Positions 1 to 50,263 are shown, numbered from the stretch's first letter. The stretch: 64,000 nucleotides of DNA from an uncultured Clostridia bacterium (GCA_934168355.1 CAKPNI010000001.1:3886-67885), one strand, 5' to 3'. Program-made: numbers and translations. The notes: generated by a model not told the origin, from the letters alone.

Positions 1-105
1 TAAAAATAAAAGAAAAAATGCGAAAAAATAAGAAAATGAAAGAAAAATACACGACTGATAGCATAAAAGATGAGAAAAAACAGAATTAATAATAGAAAAT
101 TATTG

Positions 106-134
106 TTGAAAAAATAATGAAATGTAATTATAAT
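106..134 (+). promoter_or_regulatory. Putative sigmaA promoter of ctsR operon (-35 TTGAAA 106-111, 17-nt spacer, -10 TATAAT 129-134)
   Basis: Consensus-like hexamers with 17-nt spacing directly upstream of the CtsR operator. Confidence 0.5.
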
Positions 135-142
135 AGCAATAA

Positions 143-160
143 AGGTCAAAGAAAGTCAAA
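143..160 (+). promoter_or_regulatory. CtsR operator (heptad direct repeat AGGTCAAA-GAA-AGTCAAA)
   Basis: Matches the CtsR box consensus (A/G)GTCAAAnAn(A/G)GTCAAA. Lies just downstream of the -10 and upstream of ctsR, as expected for autoregulation. Confidence 0.8.
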
Positions 161-201
161 AACAAACAAAACTTGAAAGTAAGTGGAAAGAAACTTTTCT
201 G

Positions 202-242
202 ATTGGGGGACGGTTCCTTTGGCGAAAAGAACCGTCCCCAAT
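202..242 (+). repeat. Palindromic repeat element copy R1 (TTGGGGGACGGTTCCTTT-GGCG-AAAAGAACCGTCCCCAAT) in ctsR 5' UTR
   Basis: 18-bp inverted arms seen directly. Member of a family recurring through the window. Followed by AAAGAAAGGAG SD and the ctsR ATG. Confidence 0.85.
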
Positions 243-264
243 ACGAAAAAAGAAAGGAGAACCT

Positions 265-708
265 ATGAGAGTATCAGATATAATAGAAGAATTTATCAAA
301 GAGTTATTCAATGACGAAGAAGAAATAGAAATACAAAGAAACGATTTAGCACAAAAGTTCAACTGTGTACCATCGCAAATAAACTATGTAATCTCAACAA
401 GGTTTAAGCCGTCACAAGGATACTATGTAGAAAGTAGGCGTGGAGGAGGAGGACACATAACAATAAAAAAAGTAAGTAATACAAAATCAGATTATATAAT
501 GCATATAATAGAAAATATAGGAGAAACATTACAAAATAGTGAAGCTGACATTTTAATAAGTGATTTTCTAACATACAATTTAGTAAATGAGAAAGAGGCA
601 CAACTATTAAAAGTTGCGACAAGCGATAACGTTTTAGATATTCCAAAAGAATACCGAGATAAACTGCGAGCAAATATTTTTAAGAATATGTTATTAAATC
701 TTGATTAA
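265..708 (+). CDS. ctsR: Transcriptional repressor CtsR
   Basis: 147 aa with N-terminal HTH and glycine-rich loop (RRGGGGHITIKK) typical of CtsR. Heads the ctsR-mcsA-mcsB-clpC operon. Confidence 0.9.
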   Translation: MRVSDIIEEFIKELFNDEEEIEIQRNDLAQKFNCVPSQINYVISTRFKPSQGYYVESRRGGGGHITIKKVSNTKSDYIMHIIENIGETLQNSEADILISDFLTYNLVNEKEAQLLKVATSDNVLDIPKEYRDKLRANIFKNMLLNLD

Positions 709-710
709 TT

Positions 711-812
711 GTACGAAAAAGAACCGGTCCCAAAAGAACATGTTCATAAAAGAACCGGTCCCAAAAGAGCAAAGAGCAAAATGAACCCAAAAAGAACCGG
801 TCCAAATGGGTC
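711..812 (+). repeat. Three tandem direct half-site copies (AAAAGAACCGGTCCCAAA at 716-738, 748-767, 789-806) of the palindromic repeat family in the ctsR-mcsA intergenic region
   Basis: Direct sequence repeats. The first copy (715-745) is identical over about 31 nt to 4895-4925. Confidence 0.85.
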
Positions 813-840
813 AAAAAAAACAAAGAAAGGAATGATAATT

Positions 841-1413
841 ATGAAATGTGAAAATTGTGGAAAAAATGAGGCAAATGTAAAATATACCCAAATAATAAAT
901 GGAGAAAAAAAGCAAATGTTTTTATGTGAAGAATGTAGTAAAAAACTAGGAATAAGTGACATACACTTTAATATGCCAATAAGTTTTAATAGCTTTTTGG
1001 AAGATTTTTTTGACGACATGAATGATGTAAGTTTTATGCCAACATTAGGAGCAGGAAACAAAGAGTTAAAATGCAGTAAATGTGGCTTAACATGGGATGA
1101 CTTTTTACATACTGGAAATTTAGGATGCAGTAACTGTTATGAAGAATTTGAAGCAAGACTTAATCCAATTTTAAGAAGTTTGCAAGGGGCAACATCACAT
1201 ATTGGAAGACTTGGAGATGTTATAGAGGGAAATGACATAAAACCTAATTTATATGACAAAGAAAATACAAGTGCCATAGAGGAAAGCAAAAATATAAGCA
1301 AAGTAGATGAACTAAAAGAAGAATTAAAACAAGCCATAAAAGAAGAGAGATATGAAGAGGCTGCAAAACTTCGTGACGAGATTAAAAATTTAGAAAACGG
1401 ACAGGAGGAATAG
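841..1413 (+). CDS. mcsA: McsA-like protein arginine kinase activator (zinc-finger plus UvrB/C motif)
   Basis: CxxC pairs (CENCGK, CEECSK, CSKCG, CSNC) and C-terminal UVR motif EEAAKLRDEIKNLE. Position between ctsR and mcsB. Start placed at ATG 841 after SD AAAGAAAGGA; the 709 ORF start lies inside the repeats. Confidence 0.8.
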   Translation: MKCENCGKNEANVKYTQIINGEKKQMFLCEECSKKLGISDIHFNMPISFNSFLEDFFDDMNDVSFMPTLGAGNKELKCSKCGLTWDDFLHTGNLGCSNCYEEFEARLNPILRSLQGATSHIGRLGDVIEGNDIKPNLYDKENTSAIEESKNISKVDELKEELKQAIKEERYEEAAKLRDEIKNLENGQEE

Positions 1414-1416
1414 TAT

Positions 1417-2421
1417 ATGAATTGGTATTTACAAAGAGGAAAAGATAGTGATGTTGTAGTAAACTGTAAAATTATGTTTTCTAGAAATTTAAGAAATCAT
1501 AGGTTTAATACCAGAAGTCTACCAGAAATTCAAGAGATAGAAAATGAAGTTAAATCAAAATTACAAGGAATAGGATATAATCTAAAATTTATAAAAATAA
1601 AAGATTTTGATGAATTAACCAAAAGGTCTATGGTAGAAAAAGGCTTGATAGATGAAGCAACTATCAAAAATGAAAATACATCAATTTTAATAAATGATGA
1701 CGAAAATATTTGTATTGTACTTAATTCTCAAGACCATATAGAAATCCAAGTTTTTAATGCAGGAATGGAACTTGAAAGTACATTTAATTTAGCAAAAGAA
1801 ATTGACAACAAAATTGATAAAATTTTTGATATTGCAAAAAGTAAAAAATACGGATATCTAACTTCATCCCCATTAGATGTAGGAACAGGATTAAAAGCAG
1901 AAGTTACAATTCATTTACCGGGACTTACAATGACCGGAAATATGAGAAAAGTAGCCATTGCCATGAATAATTTAGGAGTAAGCTTTAGTAGCAAATATAT
2001 TAACGGCCAAGAAAATATAGGAGATATCTACAAGATGAAAAATAAGCAAACATTAGGAATTTCAGAGGATACAATTATTAATAATTTAAAGGCTATTAGT
2101 GAAAAAATGATAGAGCAAGAAAGAGCTGCAAGAAGCATACTGGGAAAAAATCAGATTGAGCTTGAAGATATGGTGTATAGAGATTTTGGAACATTAGTTA
2201 ATGCAAGAAAATTGAGATGGCAAGAAGCAATTAAACTTATGTCAAATGTAAAAATGGGTGTTGATATGGGAGTAATTAAGGAACTAAGTGATAATGATAT
2301 TGCTAAAATTTACTTTTATATAGAACCAGCAAGTCTTCAGAAATATTTTAATCAAAATTTGGATGGATATGACAGAGATATCAAACGCGGAGAGATGATT
2401 AGAAATATTGTAAAAAAATAA
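1417..2421 (+). CDS. mcsB: Protein arginine kinase McsB
   Basis: 334 aa phosphagen-kinase-like protein. Operon context between mcsA and clpC. Confidence 0.85.
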   Translation: MNWYLQRGKDSDVVVNCKIMFSRNLRNHRFNTRSLPEIQEIENEVKSKLQGIGYNLKFIKIKDFDELTKRSMVEKGLIDEATIKNENTSILINDDENICIVLNSQDHIEIQVFNAGMELESTFNLAKEIDNKIDKIFDIAKSKKYGYLTSSPLDVGTGLKAEVTIHLPGLTMTGNMRKVAIAMNNLGVSFSSKYINGQENIGDIYKMKNKQTLGISEDTIINNLKAISEKMIEQERAARSILGKNQIELEDMVYRDFGTLVNARKLRWQEAIKLMSNVKMGVDMGVIKELSDNDIAKIYFYIEPASLQKYFNQNLDGYDRDIKRGEMIRNIVKK

Positions 2422-2437
2422 GAGAGGAGTAAATAAT

Positions 2438-4891
2438 ATGATATATAAATTTACATCAAGAGCCAAAAAGGCAATTGAGGTTGCACAGGATGAAGCAATT
2501 TCTCTTGGACACAACTATATAGGAACTGAACATGTTTTATATGGTTTGATAAAAGAGGGGGCAGGAGTTGCAAGTAGAGTTTTACAAAATCAAGGAATAA
2601 CTGCTGAAGATATAGAAGCAAAAATCATTGAAATGATAGGCAAAGAAGTAATTACAGAAACTGACACACTGGGTTTTACCCCAAGAACCAAAAGGGTTAT
2701 AGAAAATAGTTTTATAGAGGCTAGAAAACTCGGATATGACTACATAGGAACAGAACATCTTTTAATGGGAATTTTAAGAGAGGGAGATAGTATTGCTGTT
2801 AGAATTTTACTTGATTTAGATGTTGAATTACCTAAGTTGTACAACGAAATTGTACATGTTATAAATGAAGCAGAAGATGTATCAAGAGAAAGTAAATCAA
2901 ATGATAAACAAAATGGAAGTTTTAATTCAACTCCAACTTTAAACCAATTTGGAGAAGATTTAACAAAAAAGGCTAAAGATGGAAGGCTAGACCCAGTAGT
3001 TGGTAGAAGTAAAGAGATTGAAAGAGTTATTCAAATTTTATCAAGAAGAACAAAAAATAATCCATGTTTAATAGGAGAGCCGGGTGTTGGTAAAACTGCA
3101 ATTGTAGAGGGCTTGGCACAAAAAATTAATTTGGGAGATGTACCTGAAATTCTTAAAAATAAAAGAGTTGTAAGTATGGATATTTCAGGAATGGTTGCAG
3201 GTGCAAAGTACAGAGGCGATTTTGAAGAAAGAATTAAAAAGGCTTTAGGAGAAGTAAAAAAAGCAGGAGATGTAATATTATTTATTGATGAAATTCATAC
3301 AATAGTTGGTGCAGGTTCTGCAGAGGGTGCGATTGATGCTGCAAATATTTTAAAACCTATGCTTGCAAGAGGTGAAATTCAGTTAGTTGGTGCAACTACA
3401 ATTGGAGAGTATAGAAAATATATAGAAAAAGATACAGCATTAGAGCGTAGATTTAGCCCTGTTACCGTAAATGAGCCAACTGAAAAGGATACTATTACAA
3501 TCTTAAAAGGAATAAGAGATAAATATGAAGCTCATCATAATGTAAAGATTACAGACGAAGCAATAGAAGCAGCTGTTACATTATCTGAAAGATATATTAA
3601 TGATAGATTTTTACCAGATAAAGCAATAGATTTAATTGATGAGGCATCTTCAAAAGCTAGACTTCAGACTTACACAGAGCCAGAAAGTTTGAAAGATATG
3701 CAAGAAGAAATTGACAAAATATCAAAAGACAAAGAAGAAGCGGTTCGTGGTCAAAAGTTTGAGAAAGCGGCATCACTTAGAGATGAGGAAAAGGCTTTAA
3801 GAGAAAAATATGAAAAAGAGGAGAAAAAGTGGAAAAATCAAAATACTAAAAAAGTCGTTACAATAACAGAAGAAAATATTGCAGATGTAATTTCACTTTG
3901 GACAGGAATTCCAGCTAAAAAGATATCAGAAGACGAAAATGAAAGACTTCGTAACTTAGAAAAAACATTACACGAAAGAGTAATCGGTCAAAATGAAGCA
4001 GTAGAAGCAGTAAGCAAGGCAATAAGAAGAGGAAGAGTAGGTCTAAAAGACCCAAATAGGCCAATAGGTTCATTCCTATTTTTAGGTCCAACAGGTGTAG
4101 GAAAAACAGAGTTATCAAAAGCATTAGCAGAAAGCCTATTTGGAGATGAATCTGCAATGATAAGAATTGATATGTCTGAATATATGGAAGCACATTCGGT
4201 ATCAAAGCTTATAGGATCTCCTCCGGGATATGTAGGATTTGAAGAAGGAGGCCAGTTAACTGAAAAGATTAGAAGAAAACCATATTCTGTAATTTTGTTT
4301 GATGAGATTGAAAAAGCACACCCTGATGTAATGAATATGCTTCTTCAAATACTTGATGATGGAAGACTTACAGATTCCAATGGTAGAACAGTTAATTTCA
4401 AAAACACTGTAATTATTATGACATCTAATATTGGTGCAAGAATTATTACAGATAAAAGAACTTTAGGTTTCTCAAACGAAACAAAAAATGGTGACAAAAA
4501 TAAAGATGAACAAAAAGAATATGAAAATATCAAAAAAGAAGTAATGGCTGAATTAAAACGAGAGTTTAGACCAGAGTTTATAAACCGTATTGATGAGATA
4601 ATTGTATTCCATAAGTTGAATGATGATGAAATTTCTAAAATTATTGAGTTAATGCTTAATGAGGTTAAAAATAGAATGAAAACTCAAAAATACGTGATTG
4701 AATTTTCGCCTAAAGTTAATGAATTAATTTCTAAACAAGGTATTGACAAAGCTTTTGGTGCAAGACCTCTTAAAAGAACTATTCAGAATTTAGTTGAAGA
4801 TAAAATTGCTGAAGCTATTTTGGACGGTGTTGTTAAAAAAGGTAAAGAGGCAAGTGTTGATTGTGATGGAGAAGAGATAGTAATTAGGTAA
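2438..4891 (+). CDS. clpC: ATP-dependent Clp protease ATP-binding subunit ClpC
   Basis: 817 aa with two Clp N-repeats, two AAA+ modules (GEPGVGKT, GPTGVGKT) and UVR linker. Confidence 0.95.
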   Translation: MIYKFTSRAKKAIEVAQDEAISLGHNYIGTEHVLYGLIKEGAGVASRVLQNQGITAEDIEAKIIEMIGKEVITETDTLGFTPRTKRVIENSFIEARKLGYDYIGTEHLLMGILREGDSIAVRILLDLDVELPKLYNEIVHVINEAEDVSRESKSNDKQNGSFNSTPTLNQFGEDLTKKAKDGRLDPVVGRSKEIERVIQILSRRTKNNPCLIGEPGVGKTAIVEGLAQKINLGDVPEILKNKRVVSMDISGMVAGAKYRGDFEERIKKALGEVKKAGDVILFIDEIHTIVGAGSAEGAIDAANILKPMLARGEIQLVGATTIGEYRKYIEKDTALERRFSPVTVNEPTEKDTITILKGIRDKYEAHHNVKITDEAIEAAVTLSERYINDRFLPDKAIDLIDEASSKARLQTYTEPESLKDMQEEIDKISKDKEEAVRGQKFEKAASLRDEEKALREKYEKEEKKWKNQNTKKVVTITEENIADVISLWTGIPAKKISEDENERLRNLEKTLHERVIGQNEAVEAVSKAIRRGRVGLKDPNRPIGSFLFLGPTGVGKTELSKALAESLFGDESAMIRIDMSEYMEAHSVSKLIGSPPGYVGFEEGGQLTEKIRRKPYSVILFDEIEKAHPDVMNMLLQILDDGRLTDSNGRTVNFKNTVIIMTSNIGARIITDKRTLGFSNETKNGDKNKDEQKEYENIKKEVMAELKREFRPEFINRIDEIIVFHKLNDDEISKIIELMLNEVKNRMKTQKYVIEFSPKVNELISKQGIDKAFGARPLKRTIQNLVEDKIAEAILDGVVKKGKEASVDCDGEEIVIR

Positions 4892-4899
4892 TTTGTACG

Positions 4900-4949
4900 A
4901 AAAAGAACCGGTCCCAAAAGAACATTGTTCGTTTGGGACCGGTTCTTTT
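4900..4949. terminator. Palindromic repeat element copy R3 (about 24-bp stem, TTG loop) between convergent clpC and CDF genes; probable bidirectional terminator
   Basis: AAAAAGAACCGGTCCCAAAAGAACA-TTG-TTCGTTTGGGACCGGTTCTTTT. Followed by TTTTG on the + strand and preceded by A-run. Flanked by convergent stops at 4891 and 4957. Confidence 0.7.
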
Positions 4950-4956
4950 GTGAACA

Positions 4957-5820
4957 TTATACAGGCTCAACATGCACAATAGTCTTATAAACATTATCAA
5001 GTTTACTAACACTTCTCTCAACACTATCTGCCAAAGAATGGCTATCAAAAGTAGACATATTACCATCAACACAAATGACGATAACAATTACATATTTATA
5101 TCCAACGGGAGAAGAGCTAATACTTTGAACTTCCTTAATATCTTGATAAGAATTTACAATATCTAAGATTAAATCTTTAGTTTTATCATCAACAGAAATA
5201 TCCATTAAAACATTATAACTTTCGATAAAAAATGAAAAACCAGTAAATCCGATCCAAATAGAAATTCCAATACCAGTTAAACTATCAAACCAATAGATAC
5301 CTTTTAAAGTAAGTAAAACAGAAATTAAAGTAAAAGTTGTTACAATACAGTCATTTCTATGGTCATTCATATTAGCATTAAGTAAGATATTGTCATATTT
5401 TTTTGCAGCTGTTCTAGTATATAAATATAAGAAAAGTTTTACACCAATAGTAATAAAGCAAGTTACCACAAGAAGCCATGAAAATTTTAATTCGCTTCCA
5501 AATATAAGTGTTTTTATTGAATCATACAATAATTTAAAACTAACCACAATCATTGATATTCCAATAAACATAGAGAAGATGTATTCTGCTTTACCATGTC
5601 CAAAATTATGGTCATCATCTTTTGGTGCACTTGAAATTTTGTTGCCAATAAAAGTCAGAAGTGATGCAAAAATATCACCAGCTGAATTTATACTGTCTGC
5701 AATCATGGCTTGACTTTTGGTAGCAAAACCAATTGTTCCTTTTATAATTAATAAAAATATATTACCTAAAATACCTAAAATTCCAACTTTCTTGGTTTGA
5801 GAAAAACGATTATCATCCAT
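4957..5820 (-). CDS. Cation diffusion facilitator family transporter
   Basis: 287 aa, six TM helices, CDF-type HxxxD motifs, C-terminal cytoplasmic domain. Confidence 0.8.
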   Translation of the reverse strand: MDDNRFSQTKKVGILGILGNIFLLIIKGTIGFATKSQAMIADSINSAGDIFASLLTFIGNKISSAPKDDDHNFGHGKAEYIFSMFIGISMIVVSFKLLYDSIKTLIFGSELKFSWLLVVTCFITIGVKLFLYLYTRTAAKKYDNILLNANMNDHRNDCIVTTFTLISVLLTLKGIYWFDSLTGIGISIWIGFTGFSFFIESYNVLMDISVDDKTKDLILDIVNSYQDIKEVQSISSSPVGYKYVIVIVICVDGNMSTFDSHSLADSVERSVSKLDNVYKTIVHVEPV

Positions 5821-5954
5821 TAATTAGCCACATCCTTTATACAATTTTTATGAAAATATAATCTTAAGTATATCACATTTAGGTTAAAAAGTTAATAAAA
5901 ACAGTAAAAATTACAGAAATATTACATTATTGTTACAAAAATATTACAAAAGTG

Positions 5955-5983
5955 TTGCATAATTTTTACAAAAGTGATATAAT
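5955..5983 (+). promoter_or_regulatory. Putative sigmaA promoter (TTGCAT, 17 nt, TGnTATAAT)
   Basis: Extended -10 consensus upstream of the 6020 ORF. Confidence 0.45.
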
Positions 5984-6019
5984 TGATATGTACAAAGGAA
6001 ATTTTGTGAGGTGATTAAG

Positions 6020-46288: not shown

Positions 46289-47374
46289 ATGAAAAAAATA
46301 ATACCAATTCTTATTTTTATTTTTATAATAATTGCAATAGTTTGCGTAAAATTAAACAAAAACAGTAACAATAAAGAGGAAAATAAAACAATCAGATATA
46401 CAACTATCACTACAACCGAAGGAATAATAACTACGCCATCATTAGAAGATGAAATACAAACAAATACAATATGGTGTGGAACATTTCAGTTAATATGGAA
46501 TGACTTAAAAAATGACATAGCAAAACAAGACATAGTATTTAATCCACAATCAAAAATTGTAGAAAATTTAAACAAAGAAACGTTTAGTGTAAAAGATATA
46601 TCTGATAAATACTATTATAAAAAAATTGGAACACCAACAACTGCGTTAAAACAAGAAATTGAAAAAGCGATACAAGACAAATTTAATGAAAAAAGCGATA
46701 TTTTAGACAATTTTGATTGGAACGGAAAAACAGAAGAAGACTACTTTTTATATGCAATGCTAAAAAAGGAATTTCAATTTGAGAAAGTATTTGATGAGTT
46801 TGAAAATGGAAAATTTGGACAATATGATGATATAAAATATTTTGGCATAAAAACAGGTGAAAATGAAGAAGTAAGAAATCAAGTAACTGTATTATATTAT
46901 GATTCTGCTAATAATTTTGCAATAAAATTAAAGACAAAACAAGAAGATGAAGTTATATTGTGCAAAAATCCGGAAGGAAAAACATTTAATGAAATTTATA
47001 AAAATATAGAGGAAAAAGAAAAGAATTTTAAAGGAAATAAGGGCATAGCAGAAAAGGAAGTTGTGAAAATTCCTAATATAAAATTAAATGAAAAAGCAGA
47101 ATTTAGTGAGCTTGAAAATAAACCATTTTTGTTTTCAAATGGTAATTCGTATTTGATTGAAAAAGCTATCCAAACAATTCAGTTTGAATTAGATAAAACA
47201 GGAGGAAAAATAAAAAGTGAAGCAGGAATGATGGTATCTAAGACATCTCTTGAAAGACCTGAGGAAAAAAGAACATTTGTGTTAGATGATACTTTTGCGA
47301 TATTTTTGAAAGAAGATGGAAAAGATAATCCGTATTTTGCTGGGAAGATAAGTGATATAACTAAATTTCAGTAA
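46289..47374 (+). CDS. Hypothetical secreted/membrane-anchored protein
   Basis: N-terminal signal/anchor MKKIIPILIFIFIIIAIVC. No recognisable domain. Confidence 0.5.
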   Translation: MKKIIPILIFIFIIIAIVCVKLNKNSNNKEENKTIRYTTITTTEGIITTPSLEDEIQTNTIWCGTFQLIWNDLKNDIAKQDIVFNPQSKIVENLNKETFSVKDISDKYYYKKIGTPTTALKQEIEKAIQDKFNEKSDILDNFDWNGKTEEDYFLYAMLKKEFQFEKVFDEFENGKFGQYDDIKYFGIKTGENEEVRNQVTVLYYDSANNFAIKLKTKQEDEVILCKNPEGKTFNEIYKNIEEKEKNFKGNKGIAEKEVVKIPNIKLNEKAEFSELENKPFLFSNGNSYLIEKAIQTIQFELDKTGGKIKSEAGMMVSKTSLERPEEKRTFVLDDTFAIFLKEDGKDNPYFAGKISDITKFQ

Positions 47375-47382
47375 TTTTTCTG

Positions 47383-47424
47383 ATTTGGGACGGTTCCTTT
47401 TCCGAAAAGGAACCGTCCCAAATC
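47383..47424 (+). repeat. Palindromic repeat element copy R4 (20-bp stem) in priA 5' UTR
   Basis: ATTTGGGACGGTTCCTTTTC-C-GAAAAGGAACCGTCCCAAAT. Followed by AAAAAGAAAGGA SD and the priA ATG. Confidence 0.85.
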
Positions 47425-47443
47425 CAAAAAGAAAGGAATTTAA

Positions 47444-49672: not shown

Positions 49673-49734
49673 ATGTTCTTTTGGGACCGGTTCTTTTAAG
49701 AACATGTCCATAAAAGAACCGGTCCCAAACGAAC
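49673..49734 (+). repeat. Palindromic repeat element copy R5 in def 5' region
   Basis: ATGTTCTTTTGGGACCGGTTCTTTT...AAAAGAACCGGTCCCAAACGAAC. Followed by AAAAAAGAAAGGAAG SD. Confidence 0.85.
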
Positions 49735-49755
49735 AAAAAAGAAAGGAAGATAAGA

Positions 49756-50241: not shown

Positions 50242-50263
50242 AACTTAAACTTGATGCATAATG

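What the first reader, a model, noticed from the sequence alone, without database searches (positions are those of the whole stretch)
711..812. Triple direct array of the repeat half-site fills the ctsR-mcsA intergenic region
Three direct copies (716-738, 748-767, 789-806) occupy the 132-nt gap, and a GAACATGTTC mini-palindrome follows copy 1. Unlike the other loci, these are direct rather than inverted copies. The ctsR-mcsA spacer is unusually long; these genes are often overlapping or adjacent in Firmicutes. The last copy ends 15 nt before the mcsA SD. This suggests insertion and expansion of the element inside an operon, possibly uncoupling mcsA-mcsB-clpC translation or stability from ctsR.
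Basis: seen in the sequence. Interest (0 to 1): 0.6.

Follow-up and report, generated by a model that had tools for sequence, protein, structure and literature searches.

The report
Interspersed repeat units inside ctsR operon
The long gap between the stress-regulator genes ctsR and mcsA holds three same-direction copies of a short GC-rich repeat that litters the non-coding DNA of this uncultured gut Clostridia lineage; it is a recent, strain-variable insertion of a REP/STAR-like element, and most likely a tolerated passenger rather than a new regulatory device.

Summary
The 132-nt ctsR-mcsA gap carries three sense-strand copies of AAAAGAACCGGTCC(C/A)AAA (16 family hits in the window against 0.09 expected).

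The repeat is not a half-site. It is a self-contained unit of about 31 nt, TGTTC-N2-core-N-GAACA. Units 1 and 2 (710-740, 741-771) abut head to tail, so the GAACATGTTC "mini-palindrome" is simply their junction. Unit 3 (783-812) belongs to a sister subfamily.

Comparative data show stepwise gain:
- In 79 related species the gap ranges from 11 to 252 nt, and 36 have 25 nt or less.
- The nearest species has one unit.
- Nine of ten conspecific strains have two units, and only one strain shares the window's three.

Direct arrays are common in this family (35 of 91 clusters in metagenomes), so the arrangement is not exceptional.

In the sense orientation the array has no stable RNA fold, terminator or promoter. 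The antisense transcript of the same DNA would form a terminator-like hairpin.

Verdict: this is a new family of a known kind, a REP/STAR-like interspersed repeat. Insertion and expansion are supported. Any effect on mcsA-mcsB-clpC expression is untested, and the mobilising factor is unknown.

The parts
106..134 (+). Sigma-A-type promoter of the ctsR operon (TTGAAA-17-TATAAT)
   Evidence: Best promoter-like match in 1-6000, 11 of 12 positions. The same arrangement is conserved upstream of ctsR in related species.
144..160 (+). CtsR operator GGTCAAAGAAAGTCAAA, directly downstream of the -10 box
   Evidence: Zero mismatches to RGTCAAANANRGTCAAA. Conserved in nearly all of the related loci L001-L080.
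195..250 (.). Inverted (rev-fwd) pair of the GAACCGTCCCC variant of the repeat, in the ctsR 5' leader
   Evidence: Inverted repeat I1. It folds at -26.4 kcal/mol, z = -4.8. It is present only in the closest species; the ancestral leaders lack it.
265..708 (+). ctsR
   Evidence: ORF. Homologues carry Pfam CtsR and CtsR_C.
710..740 (+). Repeat unit 1 (subfamily A): TGTAC-GA-AAAAGAACCGGTCCCAAA-A-GAACA
   Evidence: I18. The stretch 709-741 is identical over 33 nt to the first arm of the hairpin after clpC.
736..745 (.).
   Evidence: The same junction occurs at 4920-4930 and 49700-49709, whatever the orientation of the flanking units (I14, I19).
741..771 (+). Repeat unit 2 (subfamily A): TGTTC-AT-AAAAGAACCGGTCCCAAA-A-GAGCA
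   Evidence: I12; D3 is 87% identical to 49698-49744.
783..812 (+). Repeat unit 3 (subfamily B): GAACCCA-AAAAGAACCGGTCCAAA-TGGGTC. Absent from 9 of 10 conspecific strains.
   Evidence: A 25-nt stretch is identical to the first unit in species L002. It has a weak hairpin, -5.9 kcal/mol, z = -0.4.
825..831 (+). mcsA Shine-Dalgarno (GAAAGGA), within the block GAAAGGAATGATAATTATG
   Evidence: The block is shared with L001-L013, downstream of whatever is inserted in each species.
841..1413 (+). mcsA
   Evidence: ORF with a UVR motif. The gene was called from this ATG as a 190-aa product in all ten conspecific contigs L081-L090.
1417..4891 (+). mcsB (1417-2421) and clpC (2438-4891)
   Evidence: Pfam domains ATP-gua_Ptrans/McsB_C and Clp_N/AAA on the identical gene order in L081-L090.
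4894..4956 (.). Head-to-head (fwd-rev) pair of subfamily A units. This is a strong hairpin followed by a U-run, a bidirectional terminator between the convergent clpC and cation-efflux genes.
   Evidence: Inverted repeat I19. It folds at -36.2 kcal/mol, z = -7.8. Cation_efflux gene on the - strand at 4957-5820.
47373..47430 (.). rev-fwd pair (GAACCGTCCC variant) immediately upstream of the priA SD
49674..49735 (.). rev-fwd pair of subfamily A between priA and def
   Evidence: Inverted repeat I14. It folds at -37.2 kcal/mol, z = -9.0. Gene identities.
50260..50325 (.). rev-fwd pair of subfamily B between def and fmt
   Evidence: It folds at -45.9 kcal/mol, z = -12.1. Gene identities.
51282..51312 (-). 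Single reverse unit (GAACCGTCCCC variant) that supplies the last codons and the stop codon of fmt
   Evidence: The fmt ORF is 50340-51311.
57640..57705 (.). rev-fwd-fwd cluster (GAAACGGTCC variant)
60405..60465 (+). Two forward units (GGCACC and CGTTCCC variants) upstream of the promoter of the class II aminoacyl-tRNA synthetase (tRNA-synt_2) gene

Best explanation
The array consists of three units of a lineage-specific short interspersed repeat. Each unit is about 31 nt: a conserved GC-rich core, AAAAGAACCGGTCCCAAA, between 5-6-nt terminal inverted repeats that covary. The family populates leaders, intercistronic gaps and 3' ends throughout the core genome of this uncultured low-GC gut/rumen Clostridia clade. 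In kind it resembles REP/REPIN elements of proteobacteria and STAR elements of Staphylococcus.

Shown by the data:
- The ctsR-mcsA gap was ancestrally about 11-25 nt.
- It has been colonised repeatedly in different species by their own subfamily of the element.
- In this lineage it grew in steps from 1 to 2 to 3 units. The third unit is present in only a minority haplotype.

Inferred:
- All three units lie in the A-rich sense orientation and head to tail, so the operon mRNA across the gap is essentially unstructured. It has no terminator and no internal promoter, so ctsR-mcsA-mcsB-clpC should stay one transcript.
- The main physical consequence is that the mcsA ribosome-binding site is moved 130 nt away from the ctsR stop codon.
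- The orientation matters. The core is a near-palindrome whose two strands are not equivalent as RNA. Read antisense (GGGACCGGUUCU), two tandem units pair through G·U wobbles into a 12-bp stem followed by U5, which looks like a terminator. Read sense, the same positions are A·C mismatches followed by A-runs.
- The array is therefore most likely a tolerated, near-neutral passenger in the orientation that lacks the terminator-like fold.

How the units are copied is unknown. Candidates are a RAYT-like single-strand transposase, template switching, or slippage.
For: Family membership and non-randomness.

Unit boundaries and junctions: (I12, I14, I18, I19).

Stem covariation: flanks pair at 5.21 of 7 positions against 3.99 ± 0.10 in shuffles. 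There are compensatory GC/TA/CG and TA/CG classes, while the 18-nt core stays identical.

Ancestral short spacer and repeated colonisation: in 79 species the spacer is 11-252 nt. Eighteen of the 40 spacers of 40 nt or more carry a superfamily core motif, against 0 of 39 shorter ones.

Stepwise gain: L001 has 1 unit, 9 of 10 conspecific strains have 2, and the window plus L082 have 3.

Direct arrays are normal for the family: 35 of 91 clusters.

No structure or signals in the sense orientation:
- The spacer folds at -15.7 kcal/mol, z = 0.27.
- Single units fold at 0 to -5.9 kcal/mol.
- No promoter-like or terminator-like site lies in 709-840.
- No Rfam family matches.

Strand asymmetry: units 1+2 fold at -8.2 kcal/mol (z = -1.1) when read sense, and at -18.9 kcal/mol (z = -3.6) followed by UUUUU when read antisense.

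Position in metagenome contigs: same-orientation arrays or single units lying 10 nt or less after a stop codon, with no start codon downstream, are antisense to that gene in 7 of 7 cases.

Near-neutrality: within the species, nucleotide diversity in the cores is 0.014-0.017, against 0.016-0.032 at third codon positions of ctsR and mcsA.

Chromosomal rather than phage-borne: 0 hits in viral contigs. There are no copies in the 5-47 kb polysaccharide region of the window.
Against: - No mobilising enzyme was found, and no target-site duplication or precise empty/filled pair defines an insertion mechanism.
- The exact 18-nt core is conserved across contigs with different stems while the stems covary. 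A purely decaying selfish element would not do this, so a trans-acting factor that reads the core is implied, and its role could be regulatory.
- Direct and single units lie sense-oriented and immediately upstream of an SD far more often than antisense (34 against 6). This could reflect an RNA-level function rather than a selection filter.
- Antisense arrays do occur between co-directional genes (4 cases against 7 sense), so the idea that the antisense orientation is forbidden inside operons is not absolute.
- The strongly structured rev-fwd pair between def and fmt shows that structure as such is tolerated between co-directional genes.
- The diversity comparison rests on only three SNPs.
Confidence: 0.68

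Rival explanations
1. The units are functional RNA leader modules. The conserved core, presented between short covarying stems in the sense strand just upstream of ribosome-binding sites, would be bound by a lineage-specific RNA-binding factor, or would act as a stabiliser or standby site. The number of units would tune the stability or translation of the downstream cistrons, here mcsA-mcsB-clpC relative to ctsR.
For: - There is a sense bias upstream of start codons, 34 against 6.
- The last unit typically ends about 20-45 nt before the start codon, directly against the SD.
- In many clusters a -10 box lies 6-26 nt upstream of the first unit, so the units make up almost the whole 5' leader.
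- The stems covary while the core is invariant.
- A sister subfamily forms a triple direct array in the same spacer in species L003.
Against: - The 34:6 bias is not distinguishable from what co-orientation of genes with replication would give to a strand-biased element (p = 0.29 against an 80% null).
- The unit hairpins are thermodynamically negligible, 0 to -5.9 kcal/mol and no better than shuffles.
- G·U-type stem mismatches (37) are not more frequent than A·C-type mismatches (54) on the sense strand (my count from the pair table).
- Copy number varies among strains with an identical CtsR protein, and the cores carry SNPs at about the synonymous rate.
- The same units occur antisense, upstream of promoters, and fused to a gene end.
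Confidence: 0.18
2. The cores are DNA operators for a dimeric DNA-binding protein. The site GAACCGGTCC is a near-palindrome. Arrays spaced 31 and 42 bp apart, about 3 and 4 helical turns, would place the bound dimers on one face of the helix between ctsR and mcsA, as a roadblock or an internal regulatory site.
For: - The core is 8 of 10 self-complementary as duplex DNA (read directly from the sequence).
- Spacings in this spacer are 31 and 42 bp.
- The position between the -10 box and the SD in many loci is typical of repressor operators.
Against: - Family-wide periods are 29 and 31 bp, which are not helically consistent.
- Units occur after stop codons, between convergent genes and inside a coding end.
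- The flanking stems covary, which a duplex operator does not require.
- The strong excess of rev-fwd pairs over fwd-rev pairs (26 to 0, or 26 to 1 if the one +-+ cluster is counted) has no operator logic.
- Copy number is strain-variable.
Confidence: 0.06
3. Unit 3 together with its flank creates a second CtsR operator (GGTCCAAATGGGTCAAA, 799-815) in front of mcsA, giving CtsR an internal binding site within its own operon.
For: The sequence has two mismatches to RGTCAAANANRGTCAAA. The window has six such matches, against 1.5 expected.
Against: - Two of the six matches are the genuine operator, and the others are A-rich chance hits.
- The site is absent from 9 of 10 conspecific strains, which keep only one GGTCAAA heptad, and from L001 and L002.
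- The middle of the 3-nt spacer is T, not the consensus A.
Confidence: 0.03
4. The spacer is coding. The open frame from TTG 709 runs in frame into mcsA and would add 44 residues to the McsA N-terminus.
For: ORF 709-1413 is open and in frame with mcsA.
Against: - The 103-nt spacer of 9 of 10 conspecific strains is out of frame (103 is not a multiple of 3), and spacers in relatives range from 11 to 252 nt.
- Residue 1 of McsA aligns with an ATG preceded by a conserved SD in all 79 loci.
- Units 1 and 2 are read in different frames because they are 31 nt apart.
- A-rich sequence is simply poor in stop codons.
Confidence: 0.01

Closest known systems
REP / BIME / REPIN elements (Enterobacteria, Pseudomonas), mobilised by RAYT tyrosine transposases (PMC3116915, PMC3337134)
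   Same: - Short (20-40 nt), GC-rich relative to their surroundings, extragenic and high in copy number.
- Occur as singlets, inverted doublets that form long hairpins, and larger clusters.
- Mostly vertically inherited, with lineage-specific subfamilies.
- Absent from phage DNA and from the probable island in the window.
- Can sit between cistrons of an operon. The E. coli malE-malF case is from my own knowledge, not checked here.
   Different: - No conserved 5' GTAG.
- The conserved part is the centre of the unit, not the stem.
- Single units do not form a stable hairpin.
- Head-to-tail arrays are as common as inverted doublets.
- No RAYT gene has been identified.
- The host is a low-GC Clostridia lineage, where REP/RAYT systems have not been described to my knowledge.
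STAR elements of Staphylococcus aureus (PMC3532100)
   Same: - Short GC-rich direct repeats interspersed in the intergenic regions of an AT-rich Firmicute.
- Copy number at a given locus varies between strains.
- Some lie in mRNA leaders.
- Function, origin and propagation mechanism are unknown.
   Different: - Unrelated sequence. The STAR consensus is T(G/A/T)TGTTG(G/T)GGCCC(C/A).
- STAR repeats are separated by at least 40 bp of recurring spacer. Here the period is 29-31 nt and the 'spacer' is the pair of short covarying stems.
- Inverted doublets are a major class in this family.
BOX elements of Streptococcus pneumoniae and Correia/MITE elements of Neisseria (from my own knowledge, not checked in the library)
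   Same: - Modular, non-coding and intergenic, with a variable number of internal modules in tandem (boxB).
- Have terminal inverted repeats.
- Are co-transcribed with neighbouring genes and can alter their expression.
   Different: - Those elements are 100-300 nt composites with defined end modules, and Correia elements have target duplications.
- Here the unit is only about 31 nt, with no distinct end modules and no detectable target duplication.
DNA uptake sequences (DUS/USS), whose inverted pairs double as terminators (from my own knowledge)
   Same: A short, over-represented oligomer in extragenic DNA whose inverted pairs form hairpins. The pair after clpC is a bidirectional terminator.
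   Different: - The terminator-type arrangement (fwd-rev) is almost absent from the family (0-1 of 27 pairs).
- Sequence-specific DNA uptake is not known in Firmicutes.
- Tandem head-to-tail arrays and covarying flanks are not features of DUS.

Membership tests
REP/REPIN-RAYT system | Short extragenic repeat present in many copies per genome | tested here: met
   About 19 units lie in 9 intergenic loci of a 64-kb window. There are 16 hits against 0.09 expected, and more than 120 metagenome stretches carry the exact 18-mer.
REP/REPIN-RAYT system | Each REP is an imperfect palindrome that forms a stem-loop | tested here: inconclusive
   The 5-6-nt terminal inverted repeats covary (5.21 of 7 paired against 3.99 in shuffles). 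However, single units fold at only 0 to -5.9 kcal/mol, no better than shuffles.
REP/REPIN-RAYT system | Inverted doublets (REPINs) in one fixed relative orientation as the predominant replicating form | tested here: inconclusive
   rev-fwd doublets outnumber fwd-rev 26 to 0, or 26 to 1 if the one +-+ cluster is counted. But head-to-tail arrays (35 of 91) and singlets (24 of 91) are equally common.
REP/REPIN-RAYT system | Conserved 5' GTAG tetranucleotide next to the stem (RAYT recognition or cleavage site) | tested here: not met
   Units begin with TGTTC, CGTGCA, GGACA or CCCA. No GTAG is conserved.
REP/REPIN-RAYT system | Single-copy RAYT (Y1/HUH transposase) gene flanked by the repeats | not testable with these tools
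   No complete genome of the lineage could be read. A tblastn search with an IS200 TnpA sequence recalled from memory found nothing in 1.46 Mb of fetched DNA, but that is a weak lead, not a test.
STAR-like interspersed direct repeat | GC-rich short direct repeats in intergenic DNA of an AT-rich Firmicute, with copy number varying between strains | tested here: met
   The window is 27.7% GC. Direct arrays are shown. Strains differ, with 2 or 3 units.
STAR-like interspersed direct repeat | STAR consensus T(G/A/T)TGTTG(G/T)GGCCC(C/A), with at least 40 bp of recurring spacer (PMC3532100) | tested here: not met
   The core is AAAAGAACCGGTCCCAAA and the period is 29-31 nt, or 42 nt for unit 3.
MITE (transposon-derived miniature element) | Terminal inverted repeats plus a target-site duplication, with ends matching an autonomous IS element | tested here: inconclusive
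   Terminal inverted repeats are present, but they differ between subfamilies while the centre is conserved. No duplication is evident at filled sites compared with shorter sites. No parent IS element is known.
Intrinsic terminator | GC-rich hairpin followed by a U-run on the transcribed strand | tested here: not met
   There is no terminator-like site in 709-840. The sense fold has z = 0.27. The feature is met only by the fwd-rev pair at 4894-4956, and hypothetically by the antisense strand of units 1+2.
CRISPR array | Identical repeats of 23-47 nt separated by unique spacers of similar length, usually with cas genes | tested here: not met
   There are three copies only. The intervening segments are 11-24 nt and are themselves repeated elsewhere. 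The array lies inside an operon between ctsR and mcsA.
CtsR operator | Tandem heptads RGTCAAA-NAN-RGTCAAA, conserved in position | tested here: not met
   The sequence at 799-815 has 2 mismatches and is absent from 9 of 10 conspecific strains. The true operator is at 144-160.

The most novel reading that the evidence does not exclude
The invariant 18-nt core is the recognition site of a dedicated trans-acting factor in this uncultured Clostridia clade, either a domesticated single-strand transposase or an RNA-binding protein. Under this reading, sense-oriented arrays placed directly against ribosome-binding sites form a lineage-wide post-transcriptional layer, in which unit number and orientation set leader stability or termination. 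The ctsR-mcsA array would then differentially tune the McsA/McsB/ClpC arm of the heat-shock circuit relative to its repressor CtsR, and strains with 2 or 3 units would differ in stress response.
Probability: 0.12. Interest if true: 0.7.

Novelty: new member of a known kind. Interest (0 to 1): 0.33.

Why it matters
In itself the array is an ordinary consequence of an interspersed repeat colonising permissive non-coding DNA. It should not be read as a new regulatory element of the CtsR regulon.

Its value is as a clean, datable example. The allelic series runs 0, 1, 2, 3 units across species and strains. It shows how such elements expand inside an essential stress operon.

It also points to an undescribed repeat family in abundant but uncultured gut and rumen Clostridia. 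Three properties of that family are worth follow-up:
- A perfectly conserved core sits between covarying stems.
- Inverted pairs have a near-exclusive rev-fwd polarity.
- Strand asymmetry, G·U against A·C, makes one orientation of a tandem array terminator-like and the other inert.

These properties also matter for annotation. The units create spurious ORF extensions (709-1413) and can supply stop codons (fmt), and they cause strain-level length polymorphism useful for typing.

Tried and rejected
- Rfam at gathering score over the whole window found only a tRNA. At E ≤ 10 over 150-900 it gave only chance snoRNA/miRNA hits.
- A literature search for the core sequences found only unrelated primer or oligonucleotide hits.
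- An RNA structure for the sense array was rejected (z = 0.27). Single-unit hairpins are not better than shuffles.
- An internal promoter or terminator in the spacer was not found.
- A phage origin was rejected. There are 0 exact core matches in 2.9 million viral contigs.
- A Y1 transposase was sought by tblastn with an IS200 TnpA sequence recalled from memory, in 1.46 Mb of fetched DNA. Nothing was found, but this is a weak test.
- Purifying selection on the cores within the species was not detectable, although the power is low.
- A second CtsR operator and an N-terminal extension of McsA were considered and rejected, because neither is conserved even among conspecific strains.
- My first stem-covariation script used a wrong register and broke out of its loop. 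It was corrected.
- Replication-strand bias could not be separated from transcription-orientation bias with fragmentary contigs.

Full report
**Context.** The window starts with a canonical class III heat-shock operon on the + strand.
- A TTGAAA-17-TATAAT promoter lies at 106-134.
- A perfect CtsR operator, GGTCAAAGAAAGTCAAA, lies at 144-160.
- The genes are ctsR (265-708), mcsA (841-1413), mcsB (1417-2421) and clpC (2438-4891).
- A convergent cation-efflux gene follows.
- The DNA is 27.7% GC.
- CtsR relatives place the source among uncultured gut and rumen Clostridia known only as MAGs.

**Observation.** The ctsR-mcsA gap is 709-840, or 132 nt. It holds three + strand copies of AAAAGAACCGGTCC(C/A)AAA, with cores at 717-734, 748-765 and 790-806. 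The motif is far from chance. There are 16 matches with up to 2 mismatches in the window, against 0.09 expected. GAACATGTTC is at 736-745.

**Anatomy.** Self-comparison of the window shows that the repeated entity is a 31-nt unit with a 5-nt terminal inverted repeat, TGTTC-N2-AAAAGAACCGGTCCCAAA-N-GAACA. Units occur in adjacent pairs with 0-1 nt between them, in all three possible relative orientations:
- head to tail at 710-740 and 741-771;
- head to head at 4894-4924 and 4926-4956;
- tail to tail at 49674-49704 and 49705-49735.

The junction always reads GAACA|TGTTC, so the "mini-palindrome" is a unit boundary and not a separate feature. The stretch 709-741 is identical over 33 nt to the first arm of the hairpin after clpC.

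Copy 3 (783-812) has a slightly different core (GGTCCAAA) and different flanking complements (CCCA...TGGG). This is the subfamily that also forms the def-fmt pair at 50260-50325, with flanks CACA...TGTG. A third variant, GAACCGTCCCC, forms the pairs in the ctsR leader (195-250) and upstream of priA (47373-47430). It also forms the single unit that supplies the end of fmt.

About 19 units lie in 9 intergenic loci, all within 0-5 kb and 47-61 kb. None lies in the 5-47 kb polysaccharide-type region.

**Evolutionary history of the spacer.** A genome-collection scan with CtsR returned 80 loci from distinct species with 74-97% CtsR identity. In the 79 loci that contain both genes the spacer ranges from 11 to 252 nt, with a median of 50. 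Thirty-six have 25 nt or less, typically just TAGGAGGAATGATTATG, and only nine reach 132 nt. Long spacers are filled with each species' own small repeats:
- The nearest species, L001, has exactly one unit in 55 nt.
- L002 has about three units of mixed subfamily.
- L003 has three direct units of a sister subfamily (GGCACC core).
- Several more distant species have rev-fwd pairs of GGGACGG-type elements.
- L006, L008, L010 and L013 have a long-hairpin insert that brings the spacer to 200-252 nt.

Core-type motifs occur in 18 of 40 spacers of 40 nt or more, and in none of the 39 shorter ones.

Among ten metagenome contigs encoding an identical CtsR protein, nine have a 103-nt spacer. That spacer holds units 1 and 2 followed by AAAAAAGACCAAAAAGGTCAAAATGA. 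Only L082 has the window's 132-nt, three-unit allele. The ctsR leader and the clpC 3' region are polymorphic in the same way.

The proposed refutation, the same long spacer without the repeats, is not observed.

**The family at large.** The low-GC contigs (24-31% GC) carry the identical core between other flanking complements, such as CGTGCA...TGCACG, CGGGCA...TGCCCG and GGACA...TGTCC.

Across 164 distinct units the flanks pair at 5.21 of 7 positions, against 3.99 ± 0.10 when right flanks are shuffled among units. Clear compensatory classes are present. The core therefore appears to be the conserved, presumably recognised, part, and the stems are constrained only to be complementary.

In 91 de-duplicated clusters the arrangements are as follows:

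| Arrangement | Clusters |
|---|---|
| ++ | 29 |
| -+ | 26 |
| + | 24 |
| -++ | 5 |
| +++ | 5 |
| ++++ | 1 |
| +-+ | 1 |

Three points follow:
- Direct arrays are the commonest class, so the arrangement in this spacer is not exceptional.
- Inverted pairs are almost exclusively rev-fwd (26 to 0, or 26 to 1 if the one +-+ cluster is counted; p about 4e-7). This is reminiscent of a fixed REPIN-like doublet. The clpC pair is the rare terminator-type exception.
- Same-orientation clusters (direct arrays and single units) lie sense-oriented and directly upstream of an SD and start codon 34 times, against 6 antisense (p = 8e-6 against 0.5). This is not distinguishable from an 80% gene/replication co-orientation null.

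Many such clusters start 6-26 nt after a -10 box, so they constitute nearly the whole 5' leader. Seven same-orientation clusters (arrays or single units) lie 10 nt or less after a stop codon with no start codon downstream, and all seven are antisense to that gene. The exact core is absent from 2.9 million viral contigs.

**Structure and signals.**
- As sense RNA the spacer is unstructured: -15.7 kcal/mol, z = 0.27.
- Single units fold at 0 to -5.9 kcal/mol, and units 1+2 together at -8.2 kcal/mol, z = -1.1.
- No promoter-like or terminator-like site lies in 709-840, and no Rfam family matches.
- Inverted pairs, by contrast, fold at -26 to -46 kcal/mol, z = -5 to -12.

The two strands are not equivalent as RNA. 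The antisense transcript of units 1+2 forms a 12-bp stem, GGGACCGGUUCU pairing with its neighbour through G·U wobbles. That stem has -18.9 kcal/mol, z = -3.6, and is followed by UUUUU. Natural antisense arrays after stop codons fold at -21.6 to -37.9 kcal/mol.

This offers a reason why the orientation seen in the operon is the harmless one. The rule is not absolute, however, because four antisense arrays sit between co-directional genes, against seven sense arrays.

**Constraint.** Within the species, nucleotide diversity in the cores of units 1-2 is 0.014-0.017, about the same as at third codon positions of ctsR and mcsA (0.016-0.032). Three strains carry core SNPs. No purifying selection is detectable, though the power is low.

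**Interpretation.** The best-supported reading (about 0.68) is as follows. The array is three units of a new REP/STAR-like interspersed repeat family. The units accumulated stepwise in a permissive intercistronic site. They are co-transcribed with the operon and are structurally inert in their sense orientation. Their effect is probably near-neutral, apart from moving the mcsA ribosome-binding site away from the ctsR stop codon. The SD block GAAAGGAATGAT is retained.

How the units are copied is not established. The failed or inconclusive membership features are the lack of a GTAG tetranucleotide, the lack of a known RAYT, and unstable single-unit hairpins. For those reasons I do not file the family as a REPIN/RAYT system. 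I describe it only as working like one.

The main rival (about 0.18) is that sense units are leader modules read by a trans-acting factor. The invariant core with covarying stems and the position against the SD argue for it. Strain variability, the lack of constraint, the lack of a G·U preference and the promiscuous locations argue against it. Readings as a DNA operator, a second CtsR box, or coding sequence are unlikely.

**Comparison with known elements.** STAR elements of S. aureus are the closest Firmicute analogue. They are GC-rich intergenic direct repeats with strain-variable copy number, some lie in leaders, and their function is unknown (PMC3532100). REP/REPIN elements are the closest analogue for the inverted doublets and for vertical persistence (PMC3116915, PMC3337134). 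No paper in the library contains the core sequence.

**Verdict.** This is a new member of a known kind, of modest interest.

Noticed in passing
window 51282-51312 (- strand unit) and the fmt 3' end at 51311: A single reverse-oriented repeat unit (TTCTATTGGGGACGGTTCTTTTTGCTAA) overlaps the end of fmt. It supplies the last roughly nine codons and the TAA stop codon, so the element has been absorbed into a coding end.
   Followed up: partly
window 709-1413: The spacer is open and in frame with mcsA from a TTG at 709, giving a spurious 234-aa ORF. The frame is not conserved, because conspecific strains have a 103-nt spacer. This is an annotation trap created by the A-rich repeat.
   Followed up: yes
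window 799-815: Unit 3 plus its flank reads GGTCCAAATGGGTCAAA, which is 2 mismatches from the CtsR operator consensus. It is not conserved in 9 of 10 strains and is judged coincidental.
   Followed up: yes
window 5000-47000: No repeat units occur in the roughly 42-kb stretch dominated by glycosyltransferase and polysaccharide-type genes (function guessed from ORF translations, not scanned against Pfam), although it has many intergenic gaps. All units lie in the flanking housekeeping regions. This may mark a horizontally acquired island.
   Followed up: no
L006, L008, L010, L013: ctsR-mcsA spacers (200-252 nt): A different, long (roughly 170-nt, my estimate from the sequence) nested inverted repeat (GGATAGTTGTTTT...AATAACTAATCC...GGATTAGTTATT...AACAACTATC) occupies the same spacer in four related species. 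It may be a separate MITE-like element or a structured RNA.
   Followed up: no
L003: ctsR-mcsA spacer (118 nt): Three direct 32-nt units of a sister subfamily (TGCCC-AAAAAAGGAYGGCACC-AAAAGGAAAG) sit at the orthologous site. This could be parallel colonisation, or concerted replacement of an older array by the species' own subfamily.
   Followed up: partly
L081 and L085: 3' of clpC: Two conspecific strains replace the fwd-rev terminator pair after clpC with a rev-fwd pair of another subfamily (GGACAAAAGGGACCGGGTCTTTTTTGTCC ...). The operon's 3' end is therefore polymorphic for which repeat provides the hairpin.
   Followed up: no
Metagenome loci, e.g. L129, L147, L150, L142: There are 'core-less' units, such as CGGGCAAATGCACGG, in which the two stems remain but the 17-18-nt core is missing. 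This is consistent either with slippage deletion between the flanking CAAA repeats or with the core being the mobile part.
   Followed up: no
window 50258-50326: A very stable hairpin (-45.9 kcal/mol) with no U-tail lies between def and fmt, which are usually co-transcribed. This shows that strong structure between co-directional genes is tolerated in this genome.
   Followed up: partly
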